From: Candidatus Shapirobacteria bacterium S2_F12
Lineage (GTDB): Bacteria; Patescibacteriota; Microgenomatia; UBA12405
Length of the DNA stretch: 41,384 nt
Direction: 5' to 3'
NCBI GenBank assembly: GCA_019248165.1
Contig: JAEHHB010000002.1
Location: forward strand, 1-41,384
Shown: positions 9,077 through 25,409 of the stretch, piece by piece
Layout of the letters: the number at the start of each line of letters is the position of its first letter
Numbering within the stretch: the stretch's first letter is position 1
Made by a program: the position numbers and the translations under genes
The notes under the pieces: generated by a model
Database searches by the model: none
Seen by the model: only the letters and a program-made list of their open reading frames with translations
Told to the model about the DNA's origin: nothing

Positions 9077-9505
9077 ATGCCAGAAAGACAAGGTATTGTC
9101 GGAATCATAATGCAGGATGTTAGTGGGGTTATGGATTTGGTTAAACAAAAAAATACTGGCCAGACGGATATTGATTTAAAAAGGGAAGAAGAGGTGGAAG
9201 CTAGGTTGGAAAATTTAAAAAAACACAATAGGGGCGATTTAGTTTCCTTAGAGCTTTTAAGTTACACCTTAGATCGAGACCCGAAAGTTAGAGAGGTGGC
9301 GTTAAAAGGGCTTCTTGATATGGATGGGAGTTTTTCGAGTATGTCTGTTATTAAACGAGTAGTTGATATGGGTATATTTATTGTAGAAACTGAAGACGGA
9401 GGGGAAGAAGTGGCGACAGCTAAAAAGTTGTTGAAAAACCACCTAAATGATGGTGATTTTTTTTATCCAATAAGTAGGGTAATCAATAAACCTATTGGTG
9501 CTTAA
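9077..9505 (+). CDS. Hypothetical protein
   Basis: 142-aa ORF immediately behind a good promoter. No family recognised. Confidence 0.45.
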
Positions 9506-10209
9506 TTGTCTAGGACTGTTAATTCTAATAGAATATCGTCAAGGTGCCCTTGCATTACTTCGTCAAGATTATTAAATGATTTATCGATTCTATGATCTTT
9601 GATTTGATTTCTGGGATAATTATAAGTGCGAATTTTGTCTGCCCTGGTAGACTGACTAATATTAGAGCGACCACCGGCAACCTGAACTGCTCTTTTTTCT
9701 TCTTCTATTTGCCACAATTTGTTTTGTAAAAGCTTTAGGGCGATTTCTCTATTTTTTTGTTGGTAACGTTCGGTTCTAACATCAAAAGTTAATCCTGTTG
9801 GCTTGTGAACTAAATGGACTGCAGTGGAAACCTTGTTTACGTTTTGACCTCCGTTACCGCCGGCACGGCAAGCAGTAATAACAACATCGTCCATACTAAA
9901 GTTTACTTCCTTTGATTCAATTTGGGGCATAATCGCAATAGAGGCTGTAGAAGTTTGAATTCTGCCTCTTTTTTCGGTAATTGGGATTCTTTGAACTCGG
10001 TGAGTACCGGCTTCATGCTTAAGTTGATTATAAGAATCAAACCCCGATATTTGAATAATCTGTTCGTCAATTTGGCTCACTTTCCAACCGACCTTGTTGG
10101 CATATCGAATATACATGTTCATTAGGTCATTTGACCAAATTGTAGCTTCTTGACCACCGGGACCCGGATAAAACTCCATGATGGCTATATTGGGATTAAC
10201 TGTGGGCAT
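9502..10209 (-). CDS. prfA: Peptide chain release factor, RF1-type, lacking N-terminal domain 1
   Basis: PxT-type codon-recognition motif ([14 protein letters not shown]) and GGQ motif ([12 protein letters not shown]). It is colinear with E. coli RF1 from roughly residue 110 to the C-terminus but is only 235 aa. Confidence 0.85.
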
Positions 10210-10249
10210 TGTTTGTGGTTATTAGTAAATAATAAAGTTAGTAGTAAAA

Positions 10250-10290
10250 ATAAAAACCGCCAAATTGTTAAAAATTAAAGCGGTTTTTTG
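10250..10290 (-). terminator. Hairpin with flanking A/T runs between rpmE and prfA
   Basis: AAAACCGC at 10253-10260 pairs with GCGGTTTT at 10280-10287. T-runs follow on both strands. Confidence 0.5.
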
Positions 10291-10295
10291 GGATA

Positions 10296-10559
10296 CTAGT
10301 TTGATTTTGTTGATTTTTTTTCTTTAGCCTTAATATCCTTAGCATCAGCTGTAGCCTTACCTTTGGCAACTTTTTCTTTAAATTTGTCTATTCTTCCTTT
10401 AATGTCGACAAATTTTTGTTGACCAGTAAAAAATGGGTGACACTTTGAACAAACGTCGACTTCAATTTTTTCGACAGTTGAACCGGTGGTAAACTTATTA
10501 CCACAAGCACAGCTAACTTGACAATCGCTGTAATATTTTGGATGAATTCCTTGTTTCAT
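10296..10559 (-). CDS. rpmE: 50S ribosomal protein L31 (Zn-ribbon form)
   Basis: [10 protein letters not shown] start and CxC...[10 protein letters not shown] motifs. Confidence 0.95.
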
Positions 10560-21792: not shown

Positions 21793-23553
21793 ATGAAAGA
21801 TAACACCAAAAATACCCTGAAATATTATTGGGGGGCAATGGCTAACCACAAAGTAACTGGATGGGTTCTGACTTTGGGGGTAATTTTTGGGGCAATATTA
21901 GATTCGGTTGTCCCGATATTGTCAAAAAATTTTTTCAATGTTTTGTACGACGGGGGAGTAAAAGATGTGGTTTTGATGAGGTTAATGCAAATATTAGTGT
22001 TTATCGCGATAATTAAATTTGTCCGTTGGTTGCTATGGCGAATTGCGTCTTTTACAATTAATTTTTTTGAATCTAGATCGATGGTTGATTTGAGCCGGCA
22101 ATGCTTTGACTATTTACAAAAACATTCTTTTTCGTATTTTTCAAATAATTTTCCTGGTTCAATTGTTAAAAAACACAAAAGTTTTATTAATACTTTTGAA
22201 TTTTTAATTGATCAATTGTTTTTTGAAATTATCCCCGGAGTCGTAAGTGTAATCGTAATGATTTTTGTTTTGGCCAAAGTAAACATATTTTTGGGGTGGG
22301 GCATGTTTGGTTGGATGGTTGTGTTTTTGTTGATTAATTGGTGGTTTACCAAATATAAACTAAAATTCGACATACAAAGGAGTGAGGCGGAAACGGCAAC
22401 GAGTGGATTATTGTCTGACACAATAAGTAATAACATTAACATAAAGTTGTTTAACGGGTATATTTATGAAAGCGATACTTATGGTAATTTGTCATTGAAT
22501 TTGCATAAAATAAGAAAGTTTACTTGGGATATGGGGGCGATTTTTTACGGATTTCAATCTTTTTTGATGTTGGTTCTTGAGGTGTTGATTTTGTATTTTT
22601 CTGTTAGATTGTGGCAAAGAGATATGTTAACTGTGGGAGACTTTGTCCTGATTCAGTCATATTTGTTTTCGGCGGTAATGTTGGTGTGGGATTTTGGCCG
22701 AGTAATGATGAAAATTTATGAACGTTTGGCTGATGCTGAAGAAATGACGGTAATTTTAAACCTTCCTCACCAAATAGTCGACTCTAATAATGCCAAAAAA
22801 CTGACAATAAGACGTGGTGAGGTGCGGTTTGAGAATGTGAGCTTTAAATATGAAGACGGAGATGATGTAGTAAAAAATTTAAATCTAACCATAAGTCCTG
22901 GACAAACAGTGGCATTGGTGGGGATGTCTGGTTCGGGTAAGTCAACTATAACAAAGTTGTTGCTGAGGCTTTATGATGTTACCAGTGGTCGGATTTTAGT
23001 TGATGGTAAGGATATAACCACCATAACTCAGGATAGTTTAAGAAAAAATATTAGTTTAGTCCCACAGGATCCGATATTATTTCATCGAAGTTTGATGGAG
23101 AATATTCGTTATGGTAAAGTTGACTCTTCCGATGAGGAGGTAATAAAGGCAGCTAAATTGGCATATTGTGACGAATTTATATCTAGGTTGAAAGATGGTT
23201 ACAATTCTACTGTTGGGGATAGGGGAATAAAATTGTCTGGTGGAGAGAGACAGAGAGTGGCGATTGCTAGGGCAATACTTAAAAATTCGCCGATATTGGT
23301 GTTGGACGAGGCGACTTCAAGTTTAGATTCTGAATCTGAGAAATATATCCAAAAATCATTAACTAATTTGATGAAAAACAAAACAGTTCTAATTATTGCT
23401 CATAGACTGTCGACAATTAAAAAAGCAGACAGAATAATAGTAATCTCAAAGAAAAAAATTGTTGAAGATGGTACTCATGCAGAATTAATTAATAACAAAA
23501 AGGGAATTTATCGCAAGCTTTGGGGTATACAGGTGGGTGGATTTATTAAGTAA
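21793..23553 (+). CDS. ABC exporter, fused permease/ATPase (MsbA-like)
   Basis: Six-TM N-terminal domain, Walker A GMSGSGKST, signature LSGGERQR and Walker B ILVLDEATS. Confidence 0.9.
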   Translation: MKDNTKNTLKYYWGAMANHKVTGWVLTLGVIFGAILDSVVPILSKNFFNVLYDGGVKDVVLMRLMQILVFIAIIKFVRWLLWRIASFTINFFESRSMVDLSRQCFDYLQKHSFSYFSNNFPGSIVKKHKSFINTFEFLIDQLFFEIIPGVVSVIVMIFVLAKVNIFLGWGMFGWMVVFLLINWWFTKYKLKFDIQRSEAETATSGLLSDTISNNINIKLFNGYIYESDTYGNLSLNLHKIRKFTWDMGAIFYGFQSFLMLVLEVLILYFSVRLWQRDMLTVGDFVLIQSYLFSAVMLVWDFGRVMMKIYERLADAEEMTVILNLPHQIVDSNNAKKLTIRRGEVRFENVSFKYEDGDDVVKNLNLTISPGQTVALVGMSGSGKSTITKLLLRLYDVTSGRILVDGKDITTITQDSLRKNISLVPQDPILFHRSLMENIRYGKVDSSDEEVIKAAKLAYCDEFISRLKDGYNSTVGDRGIKLSGGERQRVAIARAILKNSPILVLDEATSSLDSESEKYIQKSLTNLMKNKTVLIIAHRLSTIKKADRIIVISKKKIVEDGTHAELINNKKGIYRKLWGIQVGGFIK

Positions 23554-23596
23554 GTAGTAAGTAGTAAGTAGTAAGTAGTAAGTAGTAAGTAGTAAG
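23547..23596. repeat. Heptamer microsatellite (GTAGTAA) x6 plus one degenerate unit, beginning at the ABC-exporter stop codon
   Basis: Six perfect units at 23554-23595. The preceding TAAGTAA contains the TAA stop. Confidence 0.9.
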
Positions 23597-23788
23597 ATTT
23601 CTCCCTTTATAGGTAATAAAATTTATAATAAATGGGGAAGTCGAGGGTAGTTGGCGTAGTGCTTTCAAAACAGCCTAAAGTATTTATATAGATTGACAGT
23701 ATTAAACCTAATAAAGTTGATTTTGAAGCTAAATTAATTGGATTTAAGTATAAAAAAAAAGACTGGTGGTCTGTGAGGGAGGGGAGAG

Positions 23789-23842
23789 TCCTATAATATA
23801 CATCCTATAATAGTTTTCACGATATATCCTATAATTTTCACG
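23789..23842 (+). repeat. Three direct copies of TCCTATAAT; the last two are extended by TTTTCACG
   Basis: TCCTATAAT at 23789-97, 23803-11 and 23827-35. TTTTCACG at 23814-21 and 23835-42. Confidence 0.75.
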
Positions 23843-23864
23843 GTCAAAATTAATGATATACAAT

Positions 23865-23906
23865 GATATAGTCTCTGTGGATAAGTTTAGCTTTACAGAC
23901 TATATC
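23865..23906. repeat. 10-bp perfect inverted repeat GATATAGTCT / AGACTATATC whose loop carries a consensus DnaA-box 9-mer
   Basis: Arms at 23865-74 and 23897-906. TGTGGATAA (reverse complement of TTATCCACA) at 23876-84. Confidence 0.6.
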
Positions 23907-24224
23907 AAAGTGTACACATAGAGGAGTGGCAGAAGAGAGGGATAGGGGTCAATTTAATTACTAATTTCTAATTACTAATTATTAATTAAGACTAAATTAA
24001 CTTGACGGAACTTTAAAATATAACTATGTCTCCCTAGTGGTAGGTAAGTTAAAATATAATGTCGCACAATGTATCTTTTGCGACGTATATTACTTTTTGA
24101 ACGGAGGGGGGAAGTCGTTTGGGTGTTTTTATAAATTTGGTATTTTTTCTTTTTTATTGTGTCTTAGGTTTTTTCTATTTTTTGAATATTAAAAAAAATC
24201 AATATTTCTCTTCTTGGTCTTGAT

Positions 24225-24255
24225 TGCCTAATATTTTTAATTAGGCATATTTTTT
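24225..24255 (+). terminator. 8-7-8 palindrome TGCCTAAT-ATTTTTA-ATTAGGCA followed by TATTTTTT: a terminator-like hairpin or a recombinase core-type site
   Basis: Read directly from the sequence. No CDS lies upstream on this strand. Confidence 0.4.
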
Positions 24256-24263
24256 GGGACTTG

Positions 24264-24301
24264 ACTCCCCTATAGTGGTTTGTCTCCCCTGACCGTGGTT
24301 T
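24264..24301 (+). repeat. Tandem degenerate repeat (A/T)CTCCCCT-N3-4-GTGGTTT, two copies
   Basis: ACTCCCCTATAGTGGTTT at 24264-81 and GTCTCCCCTGACCGTGGTTT at 24282-301. Confidence 0.6.
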
Positions 24302-24461
24302 ACTGGTTTGACGGGTAATCATTATTTATAGATAAAATGATAAATATGCCTTAAAATAGGTATAAAATGTATGTGACGTCACTAAATGCCCTAGAAATGA
24401 TTTTAATATTTTTTGCGAATATTGTATCGTCTATTTTGATTTAATTAATCTAAGTATTAAG

Positions 24462-24470
24462 TGGTAATAT
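24462..24470 (+). promoter_or_regulatory. Extended -10 TGGTAATAT, 6 nt upstream of the recombinase ATG
   Basis: TGGTAATAT, then GGAAAT, then the ATG at 24477. No SD. Confidence 0.4.
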
Positions 24471-24476
24471 GGAAAT

Positions 24477-25409
24477 ATGGATAATGATTTACAATTGTTA
24501 AAAAGAAGATTTTTGGAACATCTAGAAATTGAAAAAAACTGCTCAAAATTAACAATCAGAAATTACGAACACTATTTAAGCACTTTTATAAAGTATTTAG
24601 GTGACAATGGGAAAACAAACCCGACAACTGAAGATCTTAATTCTGAAACAGTAAGAAAATTCAGATTATTTTTGTCTAGACAAAAAGGAACCAAAGGAGA
24701 AATGAAGTTGGTTACACAGGGGTATTATGTAATTTCAATAAGATCGTTTCTTAAGTGGTTAATAAAAAACGACATGAAAGTGTTACAGCCAGAGAAAATA
24801 GATGTACCAAAAAACAGAGATCATTCGTTAAAATTTTTGGATGGTCAACAAATTGAAAGACTTTTGAGCCAGCCGTTAAATTCTGCAAAAACAGGATTTA
24901 GAGATAGAGCTATTTTAGAGTTGTTGTTTTCGACGGGATTACGGGTGTCAGAGTTAGTGTCTCTTGACCGAGAACAAATTAACCTAAACACTAGGGAATT
25001 TGGAGTAATTGGAAAGGGGGGGAGGTCGAGAATTGTTTTTATTTCTCACCAGGCGGCTAGTTGGGTAGATAAATATATAAAATCTCGGTTAGACAAGCAT
25101 AAGCCACTCTTTATAAGAAATCTCAGGCCAAATGAAATTGTGTTAGAAGAGGAAAAGGTTAGACTTACTGCCAGGTCGGTTCAAAGAATGGTTAAAAAAT
25201 ATGTTCGTCAGGCAAACTTACCTGTTGCAGCTACACCTCACACTATTCGTCATTCAATGGCAACTGATTTGTTGTTGAATGGAGCGGATATTAGATCGGT
25301 ACAGGAAATTTTGGGTCACAAAAATATTGCGACAACCCAAATTTATACTCACGTAACCAATGCTAGACTGCGAGAAATTCACGAAAAATTTCATAGTGGA
25401 AATAAATAA
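24477..25409 (+). CDS. XerC/XerD-type tyrosine site-specific recombinase
   Basis: N-terminal SAM-like domain (LEHLEIEKNCSKLTIRNYEHYLSTF). Catalytic residues are present: GLRVSELVSL (Arg), HTIRHSMAT (HxxR) and LGHKNIATTQIYTHV (His/Tyr). Confidence 0.9.
   Translation: MDNDLQLLKRRFLEHLEIEKNCSKLTIRNYEHYLSTFIKYLGDNGKTNPTTEDLNSETVRKFRLFLSRQKGTKGEMKLVTQGYYVISIRSFLKWLIKNDMKVLQPEKIDVPKNRDHSLKFLDGQQIERLLSQPLNSAKTGFRDRAILELLFSTGLRVSELVSLDREQINLNTREFGVIGKGGRSRIVFISHQAASWVDKYIKSRLDKHKPLFIRNLRPNEIVLEEEKVRLTARSVQRMVKKYVRQANLPVAATPHTIRHSMATDLLLNGADIRSVQEILGHKNIATTQIYTHVTNARLREIHEKFHSGNK

What the first reader, a model, noticed from the sequence alone, without database searches (positions are those of the whole stretch)
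23554..24476. 923-bp ORF-free, repeat-dense spacer upstream of the recombinase gene: candidate long structured RNA or recombination-site array
Intergenic gaps elsewhere in this window are mostly under 200 bp. Here 923 bp carry no ORF of 60 aa or more on either strand. The tract is not simple AT filler. It has G- or C-rich islands in an AT-rich background: GGGGAAGTCG at 23634-43 and again at 24108-17, GAGGGAGGGGAGAG at 23775-88, and CTCCCCT at 24265-71 and 24284-90. It also has several hairpins (23865-23906, 24061-24084, 24225-24247). AGGGGAG (23780-86) and AGGGGGG (24105-11) can pair with the CTCCCCT copies. The 8-7-8 hairpin at 24225-47 is followed by TATTTTTT, like an intrinsic terminator for a plus-strand transcript, yet no CDS lies upstream on that strand. 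A 10-bp palindrome GTGACGTCAC (24373-82) sits about 95 nt before the recombinase start. Together this suggests a non-coding RNA and/or an array of protein-binding sites associated with the recombinase.
Basis: partly seen in the sequence, partly recalled or inferred. Interest (0 to 1): 0.7.

Follow-up and report, generated by a model that had tools for sequence, protein, structure and literature searches.

The report
Conserved dif-like recombination locus, not RNA
The 923-bp gene-free spacer is a deeply conserved stretch of protein-binding DNA built around a recombination site for the neighbouring Xer enzyme, and it may mark where these tiny bacteria finish, and perhaps also start, copying their chromosome.

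Summary
All coordinates check, and the 923-bp gap is the largest in the window (next largest 268 bp). An 830-1220 bp ORF-free gap lies upstream of the recombinase in 7 relatives examined directly, and its core site is found in 58 distinct Microgenomates loci.

The RNA reading fails. Rfam gives no hit, folding is no better than shuffles, and RNAalifold finds no covariation on either strand. Motifs also flip orientation between lineages.

The hairpin at 24061-24084 is a 9-6-9 inverted repeat, GTCGCACAA-TGTATC-TTTTGCGAC. Its arms are invariant and its centre varies, and it matches E. coli dif at 17 of 28 positions. It always lies upstream of the Xer-family gene.

In Saccharimonadales the same core sits in a similar gap. 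There, filamentous prophages (Zot, G2P Rep) are flanked by the core and a direct copy of its left arm plus an identical centre. That is the signature of integration at dif.

The flanks hold one conserved DnaA-box 9-mer, TCCTATAAT and TTTTCACG repeats and G-rich or CTCCCC motifs, at fixed spacings that step by about 10 bp.

Third-codon GC skew does not switch at the site. Published relatives show one-strand skew genome-wide. The spacer could therefore be an origin/terminus junction, but this is unproven.

The parts
23549..23596 (.). 7-bp tandem repeat (AGTAAGT x 6.9) that overlaps the stop codon of the ABC-transporter gene. It is a variable microsatellite at the left edge of the spacer and probably not part of the functional element.
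   Evidence: TRF reports 100% matches and score 96. Relatives carry GAAAGTA repeats instead (L003, L005) or none (L001).
23630..23655 (+). Distal purine-rich block (GGGGAAGTCGAGGGTAGTT), semi-conserved as A.AGGGAAGTG..GGG.AGTT.
   Evidence: Alignment A1, columns 205-230; direct repeat D13.
23775..23788 (+). G-rich motif GAGGGAGGGGAGAG, which opens the left-hand conserved block.
   Evidence: Conserved as GGAGGGGAG or GTAGGGAAG in all Shapirobacteria-level relatives. A G-rich tract is also present in Woesebacteria and Saccharimonadales.
23789..23842 (+). Interleaved direct repeats: TCCTATAAT at 23789-97, 23803-11 and 23827-35, and TTTTCACG at 23814-21 and 23835-42.
   Evidence: Repeat families D4, D6 and D9. 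TTTTCAC and CCTATAAT columns are invariant in 37 sequences. In L029-L039 two of the copies sit on the other side in inverted orientation (TTATAGGA). Woesebacteria have palindromic CCTATAATTATAGG and TTCGTGAAA/TTTTCACGAA.
23854..23873 (+). TGATATA x2, with TGATATAGTC as the left arm of the 23865-23906 inverted repeat.
   Evidence: Invariant in 37 sequences. TGATATAGT is also found in Woesebacteria. Changes in the right arm are not compensated.
23876..23884 (-). Perfect DnaA-box consensus 9-mer TTATCCACA, the only perfect copy in the 41-kb window.
   Evidence: TT[AT]TCCACA lies on this strand 129-190 bp from the core in nearly all of the 52 of 58 distinct loci that carry such a 9-mer near the core; three sit at 339-399 bp. 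Density is 1.32/kb near the core against 0.11/kb elsewhere.
23940..24026 (.). AT-rich spacer. Its sequence varies but its length is constrained.
   Evidence: Block-to-core distances cluster at 129, 139, 147, 158, 168, 177 and 186 bp. The best period is 9.5-10 bp, p about 0.02.
24030..24048 (+). CTCCCTAGTGGTAGGTAAG: a C-rich and a G-rich half-motif in inverted arrangement, just left of the core.
   Evidence: Present in varied forms (CTCCCC..GGGG, ACTCC..GGAGT, CTCCT..AGGAG) in all Shapirobacteria-level relatives.
24061..24084 (+). Core recombination site of the dif type: GTCGCACAA (arm), TGTATC (6-bp centre), TTTTGCGAC (arm). The 28-bp frame is 24059-24086.
   Evidence: Found in 58 distinct loci. 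Where the recombinase was mapped, it lies upstream of the gene in the same orientation in every case. The arms are invariant and the centre varies. It matches E. coli dif at 17 of 28 positions. It is the junction of integrated filamentous prophages in Saccharimonadales.
24103..24117 (+). G-rich motif GGAGGGGGGAAGTCG, about 20-45 bp to the right of the core.
   Evidence: The GGGG columns are invariant or nearly so in 37 sequences. G5/C5 runs are enriched 4.7-fold within 400 bp of the core in viral contigs.
24118..24259 (.). T-rich spacer of variable sequence and constrained length. It contains the window-specific hairpin at 24225-47.
   Evidence: The distance from the core to TTGACTCCCC is 166-181 bp in the 29 of 37 Shapirobacteria-level sequences that carry that motif. 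Two further motif hits lie at 111 and 130 bp, and four sequences have no motif. The sequence in between is unalignable, and the hairpin plus T-run is not conserved.
24261..24290 (+). TTGACTCCCCT and TTGTCTCCCCT, a direct repeat that is the reverse complement of the GGGGAG(T)C motif family.
   Evidence: Repeat family D12. TGACTCCCC is nearly invariant. TTGACT is also present at the corresponding place in Saccharimonadales.
24345..24400 (+). Conserved block proximal to the recombinase gene (GCCTTAAAATAGGTATAAAATG ... TGACNTCAC ... GCCCTAGAAATGA). It is probably the promoter and leader of the recombinase gene.
   Evidence: Conserved in Shapirobacteria and, as GGCCTTAAAATCGAT, in Woesebacteria. 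A promoter-like site lies at 24329-24357.
24477..25409 (+). Xer-family tyrosine recombinase gene (310 aa).
   Evidence: Pfam Phage_integrase 2.8e-44 plus an N-terminal SAM-like domain. NCBIfam scores: XerD 249.7 and XerC 245.4 bits (both below cut-off), archaeal XerA 223.2 bits (cut-off 220, passes). Closest solved structure is XerD 1a0p at 8e-41. Relatives at 75-96% identity are found throughout Shapirobacteria.

Best explanation
The spacer is a cis-acting DNA locus, not an RNA gene.

Its centre (24061-24084) is a dif-type core site: two 9-bp inverted arms around a 6-bp central region. The Xer-family tyrosine recombinase encoded 393 bp downstream most likely binds the two arms and exchanges strands across the central 6 bp. 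That reaction would turn chromosome dimers back into monomers, and integrative elements could hijack it.

The G-rich/CTCCCC motifs, the TCCTATAAT and TTTTCACG repeats, the TGATATAG motif and the single DnaA-box 9-mer sit at fixed distances on both sides of the core, and the distances step by about 10 bp. They are most likely binding sites for accessory or architectural proteins that assemble a defined nucleoprotein complex around the core. Such a complex could control when and with which partner the core recombines. The last roughly 130 bp (24345-24476) are probably the promoter and leader of the recombinase gene.

Shown:
- the conservation pattern;
- the DNA-level rather than RNA-level nature of the constraint;
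- Xer-family membership of the enzyme;
- use of the same core as a prophage integration junction in related CPR bacteria.

Inferred:
- that this particular recombinase acts on this core;
- that the reaction is dimer resolution;
- that the flanks are accessory sites.
For: (1) Core architecture and conservation. GTCG[C/T]ACAA-N6-TTTT[G/A]CGAC is present in 58 distinct Microgenomates loci. Where the recombinase was mapped, the core lies upstream of the gene (-385 to -3555 bp) in the same orientation in every case. The arms are invariant while the centre changes (TGTATC, TGTAAC, TATAAC, TAATAC and others). The 28-bp frame matches E. coli dif at 17 of 28 positions. Archaeal dif sites match the bacterial consensus at 14-18 of 28 (PMC2958812).

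(2) Two loci with a more distant recombinase (L085, L089) carry a different 9-6-9 palindrome, GTCGGATAA-GTGCCA-TTATCCGAC, 117 bp upstream of their gene.

(3) Recombination in nature. In 7 IMG/VR loci long enough to show it, a direct copy of the left arm plus the identical, lineage-specific centre lies 5.3-5.9 kb from the full core, followed by an unrelated right arm. An eighth locus (L263) has an imperfect copy only 276 bp from its core, with one mismatch and no room for a prophage, so it is not counted. In L262, the locus examined in full, Zot, a G2P-type Rep and a pIII-like gene lie between the two copies. The host flank is Saccharimonadales murG and an ftsQ-like gene. Homology to an empty site stops at the core.

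(4) The enzyme belongs to the Xer family. It is equidistant from XerC and XerD and passes the archaeal single-recombinase XerA threshold.

(5) The constraint acts on DNA, not RNA. Rfam gives no hit. There is no covariation on either strand. Arm positions 5 and 20 vary independently, with C/A in 45% of sites. Motif copies change side and orientation between lineages. Spacer lengths are conserved with a period of 9.5-10 bp while their sequences are not.

(6) The scan pattern GTCGYACAA-N6-TTTTRCGAC gives more than 120 hits in viral contigs with a 6-nt spacer and none with 7 nt.
Against: - dif sites normally lie at the switch of strand composition. Here third-codon GC skew is +0.3 to +0.6 in the same sense for genes of both strands on both sides (window, 40-odd Microgenomates loci and 3 Saccharimonadales loci).
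- The link between this enzyme and this site rests on adjacency and co-variation only.
- In Saccharimonadales the element has no xer gene within 10 kb.
- Copy number per genome could not be checked.
- A conserved perfect DnaA box and AT-rich spacers are not features of known dif regions.
- The occurrence of the core between terS and terL of tailed phages is unexplained.
- No accessory protein is identified.
Confidence: 0.65

Rival explanations
1. Origin/terminus junction. The chromosome is replicated essentially in one direction, so start and end coincide. The spacer holds both a minimal origin (DnaA box, AT-rich unwinding tracts, G-rich tracts and strong -10-like boxes that might prime synthesis) and the terminus-associated dif site.
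For: - The strand bias is uniform across the whole 41-kb window, and out to about -44 kb in a relative.
- Closed genomes of related Microgenomates (order UBA1400) have a linear cumulative GC skew. The authors proposed adjacent origin and terminus or unidirectional theta replication, but did not locate either (PMC7143001).
- Unidirectionally replicating Pseudoalteromonas chromids have dif2 4-27 kb from ori2 (PMC7858055).
- A DnaA-consensus 9-mer lies within about 420 bp of the core in 52 of 58 loci, mostly 129-190 bp from it, and is also present in Saccharimonadales.
- The element has the same polarity relative to the G-rich strand in both classes.
- DnaA boxes are enriched 3-fold near the core in viral or mobile-element contigs.
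Against: - There is only one good DnaA box, not a cluster. With one mismatch allowed, density is barely above background (4.06/kb against 2.89/kb).
- No dnaA gene lies within 10 kb in any locus.
- Genes converge on the site rather than diverge from it.
- Whole-genome skew for Shapirobacteria or Saccharimonadales could not be computed here.
- No replication data exist.
Confidence: 0.2
2. Long structured non-coding RNA, or several small RNAs, transcribed from the TATAAT-like boxes and ending at the hairpin plus T-run at 24225-24255.
For: - Three perfect TATAAT hexamers and an extended -10-like TGATATAGT are conserved.
- The window has a terminator-like hairpin.
- A small C-rich/G-rich hairpin left of the core changes sequence but keeps pairing potential in many relatives.
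Against: - No Rfam family matches at E<=10.
- MFE z-scores are +0.36 and -1.2.
- The consensus fold of 37 relatives is trivial on both strands, with no covariation.
- Stem changes in the two large hairpins are not compensated.
- Motifs invert between lineages.
- The terminator is not conserved.
Confidence: 0.06
3. Purely regulatory region. The palindrome is the operator of a dimeric transcription factor, and the other motifs are promoters or operators for the recombinase and neighbouring genes. No recombination takes place.
For: - A palindrome with invariant arms and a free centre is also typical of operators.
- -10-like boxes are present.
- A conserved block lies just upstream of the gene.
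Against: - Prophages are flanked by the core and a half-core that share the central 6 bp, and homology to the empty site ends at the core.
- The element is conserved next to unrelated genes in Saccharimonadales.
- About 750 bp of conserved architecture is excessive for one 310-aa gene.
Confidence: 0.08

Closest known systems
Archaeal XerA/dif (single recombinase, works without FtsK in vitro)
   Same: - A single Xer-type enzyme; the window protein passes the NCBIfam XerA equivalog cut-off.
- A near-palindromic site with a 6-bp spacer.
- Partial identity to bacterial dif.
- In Crenarchaeota the site lies close to xerA, and in Thermococcales it has conserved flanks that may bind partners (PMC2958812).
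   Different: - The organism is a bacterium (CPR).
- The arm sequence differs.
- The conserved flanks span about 750 bp and include a DnaA-box 9-mer.
- Archaeal dif sites lie in termination regions, whereas no composition switch is seen here.
XerS/difSL of streptococci and lactococci, and XerH/difH of Helicobacter and Campylobacter
   Same: One recombinase acts on one site. The site is genetically linked to the recombinase gene, so the two form a module (PMC1914069 and PMC3325230 listed; the linkage itself is from my own knowledge).
   Different: - The enzyme is not a member of those families: XerS model 130 bits against a cut-off of 267, and XerH structure only 7.5e-11.
- The spacer is 6 bp.
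- Those sites sit at the terminus.
E. coli XerCD/dif and the integrative mobile elements that exploit Xer (IMEX: CTX, VGJ and TLC phages)
   Same: - 17 of 28 positions are identical to dif, including CGCA.AATGTAT.
- Filamentous prophages are flanked by a full site and a site with one degenerate arm and an identical centre, as in IMEX integration.
   Different: - There are not two different arms for two enzymes.
- No FtsK link has been shown.
- The hosts are Patescibacteria.
Plasmid cer/psi sites (Xer core plus about 180 bp of accessory sequence bound by PepA and ArgR/ArcA)
   Same: A core flanked by conserved protein-binding DNA at a fixed distance. This would allow position-independent, resolution-only recombination (comparison from my own knowledge).
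   Different: - The site is chromosomal.
- Flanks lie on both sides.
- The motifs are unrelated.
- No accessory protein is identified, and none of this was tested here.
The ori2-dif2 neighbourhood of unidirectionally replicating Pseudoalteromonas chromids
   Same: The dif site is not opposite the origin but next to it, in a replicon with one-strand skew (PMC7858055).
   Different: That case is a plasmid-derived chromid with a RepA origin and experimental coverage data. This one would be a main chromosome and lacks any replication data.

Membership tests
dif (Xer chromosome-dimer resolution site) | Two inverted arms of about 11 bp separated by a 6-bp (6-8 bp) central region, in non-coding DNA | tested here: met
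   GTCGCACAA-TGTATC-TTTTGCGAC. The arms are 8/9 complementary and the site is intergenic. The definition is taken from PMC2958812.
dif (Xer chromosome-dimer resolution site) | Sequence relatedness to known dif sites | tested here: met
   17 of 28 positions identical to E. coli dif. This is within the 14-18 of 28 reported for accepted archaeal sites.
dif (Xer chromosome-dimer resolution site) | Located at the replication terminus, where strand composition switches | tested here: not met
   Third-codon GC skew keeps the same sign for both gene strands on both sides over 41 kb, and in every relative tested. Genes do converge on the site.
dif (Xer chromosome-dimer resolution site) | Single copy per chromosome | not testable with these tools
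   There is one copy in the window and one per 20-kb locus. Whole genomes could not be read.
dif (Xer chromosome-dimer resolution site) | Bound and recombined by the cognate Xer enzyme | not testable with these tools
   The only support is adjacency (58 loci) and a changed palindrome next to a diverged enzyme.
dif (Xer chromosome-dimer resolution site) | Serves as attachment site for integrative elements lacking their own integrase (IMEX) | tested here: met
   Seven occupied sites, each with a direct copy of the left arm plus identical centre 5.3-5.9 kb from the full core. An eighth locus, L263, has only an imperfect copy 276 bp from its core and is not counted. In L262, the locus examined in full, Zot, G2P Rep and pIII-like genes lie between the two copies. 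Homology to the empty site ends at the core. This was seen in Saccharimonadales, not in the window's own lineage.
XerC/XerD (NCBIfam equivalogs) | Score above the curated cut-off of TIGR02224 or TIGR02225 | tested here: not met
   245.4 bits against 335.15, and 249.7 bits against 329.6.
XerA-type single recombinase (NF040815) | Score above the curated cut-off | tested here: met
   223.2 bits against a cut-off of 220.
XerS and XerH single-recombinase families | Protein family membership | tested here: not met
   XerS model 130.1 bits against 267. XerH structure 5jjv only 7.5e-11, over the catalytic domain only.
Bacterial oriC | Cluster of several DnaA boxes | tested here: inconclusive
   One consensus 9-mer is conserved in 52 of 58 loci. 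TTTTCAC[G/A] repeats are only distantly box-like, and density with one mismatch allowed is about background.
Bacterial oriC | AT-rich unwinding region next to the boxes | tested here: inconclusive
   Two AT-rich or T-rich spacers of conserved length flank the core. No unwinding element or DnaA-trio was recognised.
Bacterial oriC | Minimum of cumulative GC skew, and/or adjacency to dnaA | tested here: not met
   The skew does not change sign. No DnaA signature lies within 10 kb in any locus.
Described RNA families (Rfam 15) | Covariance-model match | tested here: not met
   No match in 23450-24600 at E<=10. The only hits in the window are two tRNAs.
Structured RNA in general | Conserved helices supported by compensatory changes | tested here: not met
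   RNAalifold on A2: 21 pairs, 1 compensatory, covariation term -0.3. The minus strand is similar.
Intrinsic terminator (24225-24255) | GC-containing hairpin followed by a T-run, conserved in relatives | tested here: inconclusive
   It is present in the window. In relatives the arms differ, and most lack a proper T-run or stable stem.
cer/psi-type accessory-sequence sites | Binding sites for PepA and ArgR/ArcA next to the core | not tested
   Only the general layout (core plus conserved flanks at fixed, phased distance) was established.

The most novel reading that the evidence does not exclude
The spacer is the place where a one-directionally replicated CPR chromosome both starts and ends replication. 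It would combine a minimal DnaA-box, AT-rich and G-rich origin with the dif-type resolution site. This would identify the origin and terminus that Kadnikov et al. (PMC7143001) postulated but could not locate. The architecture would be shared by Microgenomatia and Saccharimonadia.
Probability: 0.2. Interest if true: 0.9.

Novelty: new variant of a known kind. Interest (0 to 1): 0.62.

Why it matters
No dif site or origin/terminus for Patescibacteria turned up in the held literature. This locus supplies a concrete, testable candidate, with a 24-bp core conserved across at least two CPR classes.

It explains where filamentous prophages integrate in Saccharimonadales.

It also gives a fixed landmark for asking why some Microgenomates chromosomes carry G excess on one strand all the way round. 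If coverage profiles show a discontinuity at this spacer, a main bacterial chromosome would be shown to replicate unidirectionally with its origin and dif side by side. That arrangement is known so far only from plasmid-derived chromids.

If they do not, the locus is still an unusual dif region. It sits away from any composition switch, inside about 750 bp of phased protein-binding DNA, which points to control by accessory factors rather than by chromosome position.

Tried and rejected
- **Rfam.** Searched at gathering and at E<=10: nothing in the gap. ARAGORN found only two distant tRNAs.
- **Small ORFs.** The 34-aa TTG ORF (24119-24223) behind the GGAGGGG motif looks like a hydrophobic peptide. 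It is interrupted by an early stop (about 14 codons by eye) in the relative whose recombinase is 96% identical, so it was rejected as a gene (read by eye).
- **RNase P resemblance.** GGGGAGAGTCC against GAGGAAAGUCC was a recollection only. No covariance-model support, so rejected.
- **parS.** TTTTCACG resembles half of TGTTTCACGTGAAACA. No contiguous palindrome occurs in the window, so this was not pursued. One phage locus, L241, has TTTCACGTGAAA next to the core.
- **Invertible promoter switch.** Block order and orientation relative to the gene are constant in all relatives, so rejected.
- **Integron attI.** Conserved housekeeping synteny and low integron-integrase scores argue against it.
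- **Wasted scan.** My first collection pattern had a 7-nt instead of a 6-nt spacer. The single metagenome scan went on it, and loci L090-L209 are irrelevant to the element. The zero viral hits with N7 do serve as a control for the N6 scan.
- **Reaching the contig starts.** I tried to reach the start of the 0.9-1.1 Mb contigs to look for dnaA. The look-up returned another contig, which showed only that no dnaA lies up to about 44 kb upstream.
- **Source contig.** An exact-match look-up of the window's own contig failed.
- **Literature.** Searches for a described CPR dif or origin found none.
Full report
**What is there**

The window is a chromosomal piece of a Candidatus Shapirobacteria bacterium (Microgenomates, CPR). 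The names come from database relatives of the recombinase. It has 35% G+C and strong G excess on the plus strand (G 21.1%, C 13.9%).

The spacer 23554-24476 lies between an ABC-transporter gene (21793-23553, +) and a tyrosine-recombinase gene (24477-25409, +). Downstream come gyrA and gyrB on the minus strand.

No ORF in the gap exceeds 52 aa. The gap is 923 bp, against 268 bp for the next largest in the window.

**Is it more than chance?**

Within the single sequence, hardly.
- The 10-mer repeat and the small hairpins are of a kind expected in about 1 kb of AT-rich DNA.
- The promoter scan found 10 sites against 7.6 expected.
- The tract folds no better than its shuffles, with z = +0.36 on the plus strand and -1.2 on the minus strand.

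Comparison is what shows selection.
- Seven contigs with recombinases 96-75% identical keep the same synteny and an ORF-free gap of 830-1220 bp. Whole blocks of the gap are invariant.
- A scan of one genome per species added some 70 more loci.
- In 37 distinct Shapirobacteria-level sequences the following are invariant or nearly so, while the AT-rich stretches between them cannot be aligned: TTTTCAC, CCTATAAT, TGATATAGTC, TGTGGA[T/A]AA, the 24-mer at 24061-84, a GGGG run and TGACTCCCC.

**RNA or DNA?**

Five lines of evidence point to duplex DNA read by proteins, not to RNA.
- Rfam 15 has no match in the gap even at E<=10.
- RNAalifold on the 37-sequence alignment gives -9 kcal/mol over 744 columns. 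The covariation term is -0.3. All 21 pairs join invariant motifs, and only one pair shows a compensatory change. The minus strand is no better.
- The two large hairpins do not behave as helices. TGCGAC changes to TACGAC, and GACTATATC to AGTAGATC, with no change in the partner arm. In 107 viral and 57 host copies of the 24-mer, positions 5 and 20 vary independently. In the viral set the counts are C/G 48, C/A 48, T/G 8 and T/A 3.
- Motifs keep their sequence but change side and orientation. In L029-L039 two TCCTATAA copies are replaced by two TTATAGGA copies on the other side of the TTTTCAC pair. Woesebacteria have CCTATAATTATAGG and TTCGTGAAA...TTTTCACGAA.
- Spacer lengths are conserved while spacer sequences are not. 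The distance from the core to TTGACTCCCC is 166-181 bp. The distance from the DnaA-box 9-mer to the core falls into clusters at 129, 139, 147, 158, 168, 177 and 186 bp. The best period is 9.5-10 bp, p about 0.02 on distinct values.

**The core**

The hairpin at 24061-84 is GTCGCACAA-TGTATC-TTTTGCGAC: two 9-bp inverted arms and a 6-bp centre.
- It occurs in 58 distinct Microgenomates loci. Wherever the recombinase was mapped (Shapiro-, Woese- and Levybacteria and others), it lies upstream of the gene in the same orientation, at -385 to -3555 bp.
- The arms are constant and the centre varies: TGTATC, TGTAAC, TATAAC, TAATAC, TGTACC, TGTTTC.
- Two loci with a more distant enzyme carry a different 9-6-9 palindrome, GTCGGATAA-GTGCCA-TTATCCGAC, 117 bp upstream of the gene.
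- In the 28-bp frame the site shares 17 positions with E. coli dif, including CGCA.AATGTAT. Accepted archaeal dif sites share 14-18 with the bacterial consensus (PMC2958812).

The enzyme has the integrase catalytic domain and the N-terminal SAM-like domain.
- It scores equally against XerD and XerC models (249.7 and 245.4 bits, both below cut-off).
- It passes the archaeal single-recombinase XerA model (223.2 bits against a cut-off of 220).
- Its closest solved relative is E. coli XerD.

**Evidence that the core recombines**

The same arms with a 7-nt spacer give none. The site is intergenic in 111 of the 120 hits.

One group of hits consists of small contigs. In L262, one side of the core carries a Zot-type morphogenesis ATPase, a G2P-type replication protein, a pIII-like protein with a Gly/Ser/Asn linker and small genes, which together make a filamentous prophage. 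L229 shows the same arrangement, but its contig ends before any Rep gene. The other side carries murG and an FtsQ-like gene of Candidatus Saccharimonadales.

In seven loci long enough to contain the whole prophage, a second site lies 5.3-5.9 kb away in direct orientation. These are L216, L256, L262, L287, L291, L324 and L327. An eighth locus, L263, has only an imperfect copy 276 bp from its core and is not counted.
- The second site has the same left arm and exactly the same centre.
- The centre differs between loci: TGTCCG, TGTATA, TATACC, TATATC.
- It is followed by an unrelated right arm.

Translated comparison of an occupied locus with an empty Saccharimonadales locus aligns murG, ftsQ and the gap up to the core, and then stops. 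This is the pattern left by integrative elements that exploit Xer at dif.

**The same element in another CPR class**

Three near-complete Saccharimonadales contigs show the empty site. The layout, in order, is:
- the dcw cluster ending in murG and the ftsQ-like gene (+);
- an ORF-free gap of about 900 bp (about 2 kb, interrupted by small genes, in L333). In L331, read in full, the gap holds a G-rich tract, AGTCAA, TGTGGAAAA, about 230 bp of spacer, the core and TTGACT. The TGTGGAAAA box and the core are confirmed in all three;
- minus-strand genes (a coupling-protein-like ATPase, a sigma factor, topA, dprA).

No xer gene lies within 10 kb. The element is therefore an autonomous chromosomal locus, and its linkage to the recombinase gene is a Microgenomates feature.

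**The flanks**
- One 9-mer matching the DnaA-box consensus (TT[A/T]TCCACA, minus strand) lies 129-190 bp from the core in nearly all of the 52 of 58 distinct loci that carry such a 9-mer near the core. Three sit further out, at 339-399 bp.
- The density of such 9-mers is 1.32 per kb around the core against 0.11 per kb in the rest of the loci. In the window it is the only perfect copy.
- It is a single box. With one mismatch allowed, the density is about background.
- No DnaA signature is encoded within 10 kb of any locus.
- In viral contigs, G5/C5 runs are enriched 4.7-fold and exact DnaA boxes 3.1-fold within 400 bp of the core.
- The block at 24345-24400 is conserved in front of the recombinase gene only and overlaps a promoter-like site. 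It is probably the promoter and leader of that gene.

**The awkward fact: no composition switch**

dif sites normally sit where strand composition switches. Here the third-codon GC skew, expressed on the plus strand, is about +0.4 for genes of both orientations on both sides, over all 41 kb.

The same holds in some 45 Microgenomates loci, out to about 44 kb upstream in a relative, and in the Saccharimonadales loci. The drop in raw GC skew at the spacer reflects only the change in gene strand.

Genes do converge on the site in both classes, as they would at a terminus.

The literature offers a way out. Closed genomes of related Microgenomates (Ch65, Collierbacteria, Beckwithbacteria) show a linear cumulative GC skew around the whole chromosome. 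The authors proposed that origin and terminus are adjacent, or that replication is unidirectional, but did not locate either (PMC7143001). In unidirectionally replicating Pseudoalteromonas chromids, dif lies 4-27 kb from the origin (PMC7858055). I found no later work on this in the held library.

**Conclusion**

I commit to this reading: the spacer is a dif-type recombination locus made of duplex-DNA protein-binding sites, served by the adjacent Xer-family enzyme (confidence 0.65). Its flanks are accessory or architectural sites whose partners are unknown.

The most interesting reading that the data do not exclude is that the same spacer also contains the replication origin, making it the origin/terminus junction of a one-directionally replicated chromosome (about 0.2). 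The single DnaA box, the absence of dnaA nearby and the convergent genes keep that probability low. Skew and coverage profiles of closed genomes would decide it.

The structured-RNA reading is rejected on present evidence (0.06). A purely regulatory reading is made unlikely by the prophage junctions (0.08).

Noticed in passing
window 1-41384: Third-codon GC skew is about +0.4 on the plus strand for genes of both orientations over the whole window. The 16 kb of minus-strand genes to the right of the spacer (gyrA, gyrB, ligA, pth and others) therefore have C-rich coding strands. This matches the one-strand skew published for other Microgenomates.
   Followed up: yes
window 23549-23596: A perfect 7-bp microsatellite (AGTAAGT x 6.9) starts inside the stop region of the ABC-transporter gene. 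Relatives have a different unit (GAAAGTA) or none, so it looks like a rapidly changing repeat.
   Followed up: partly
IMG/VR loci L212, L213, L226, L231, L241, L255, L280, L329 and others: In tailed-phage contigs the same 24-bp core lies between the small and large terminase genes, in either orientation, often with poly-C/G tracts 50-100 bp away. A recombination site next to the packaging genes recalls loxP near pac in phage P1 (from my own knowledge). Its role here is unknown.
   Followed up: partly
L241, about 20 bp upstream of its core: A near-perfect parS-like palindrome, TTTTCACGTGAAACA, sits beside the core in one phage contig. The window's TTTTCACG repeats resemble one half of it.
   Followed up: no
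L085 and L089, 117 bp upstream of the recombinase gene: Two MAG contigs labelled Coprothermobacterota carry a different perfect 9-6-9 palindrome, GTCGGATAA-GTGCCA-TTATCCGAC, in front of a 49%-identical recombinase. This suggests that site and enzyme have diverged together.
   Followed up: partly
metagenome loci L090-L209: The mistaken 7-nt-spacer pattern hit a recurrent, unrelated family, GTCGTACAA(C/G)GAGAA(C/T)TTTTGCGAC, in many soil and peat contigs. Only a handful have even a distant tyrosine-recombinase match nearby, and none resembles the window's enzyme closely. Its nature is unknown.
   Followed up: no
window 9502-10559 (minus strand): The release-factor gene appears split into two ORFs (10296-10559 and 9502-10209; the PCRF domain is only partly covered). 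This looks like the programmed +1 frameshift of prfB.
   Followed up: no
L330 3722-8903: In a relative, an island of genes with cohesin and dockerin domains upstream of dnaX has GC3 skew near zero or negative, inside an otherwise positive region. It is probably recently acquired DNA.
   Followed up: no
L331-L333, right of the gap: In Saccharimonadales the gene facing the element is a 913-933 aa ATPase with TrwB/TraG-type coupling-protein domains plus DUF8128. Whether this DNA translocase has anything to do with the site was not examined.
   Followed up: no
L043, L045, L046, L052, L055, L064 between core and recombinase gene: In Woese- and Levybacteria one to three ordinary-looking genes lie between the core and the recombinase gene. 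L064 has a 249-aa protein, and the Levybacteria-type loci a 450-482-aa protein. None was run against a family library here. The noncoding element then follows the YebC-DUF5656 gene pair directly.
   Followed up: partly
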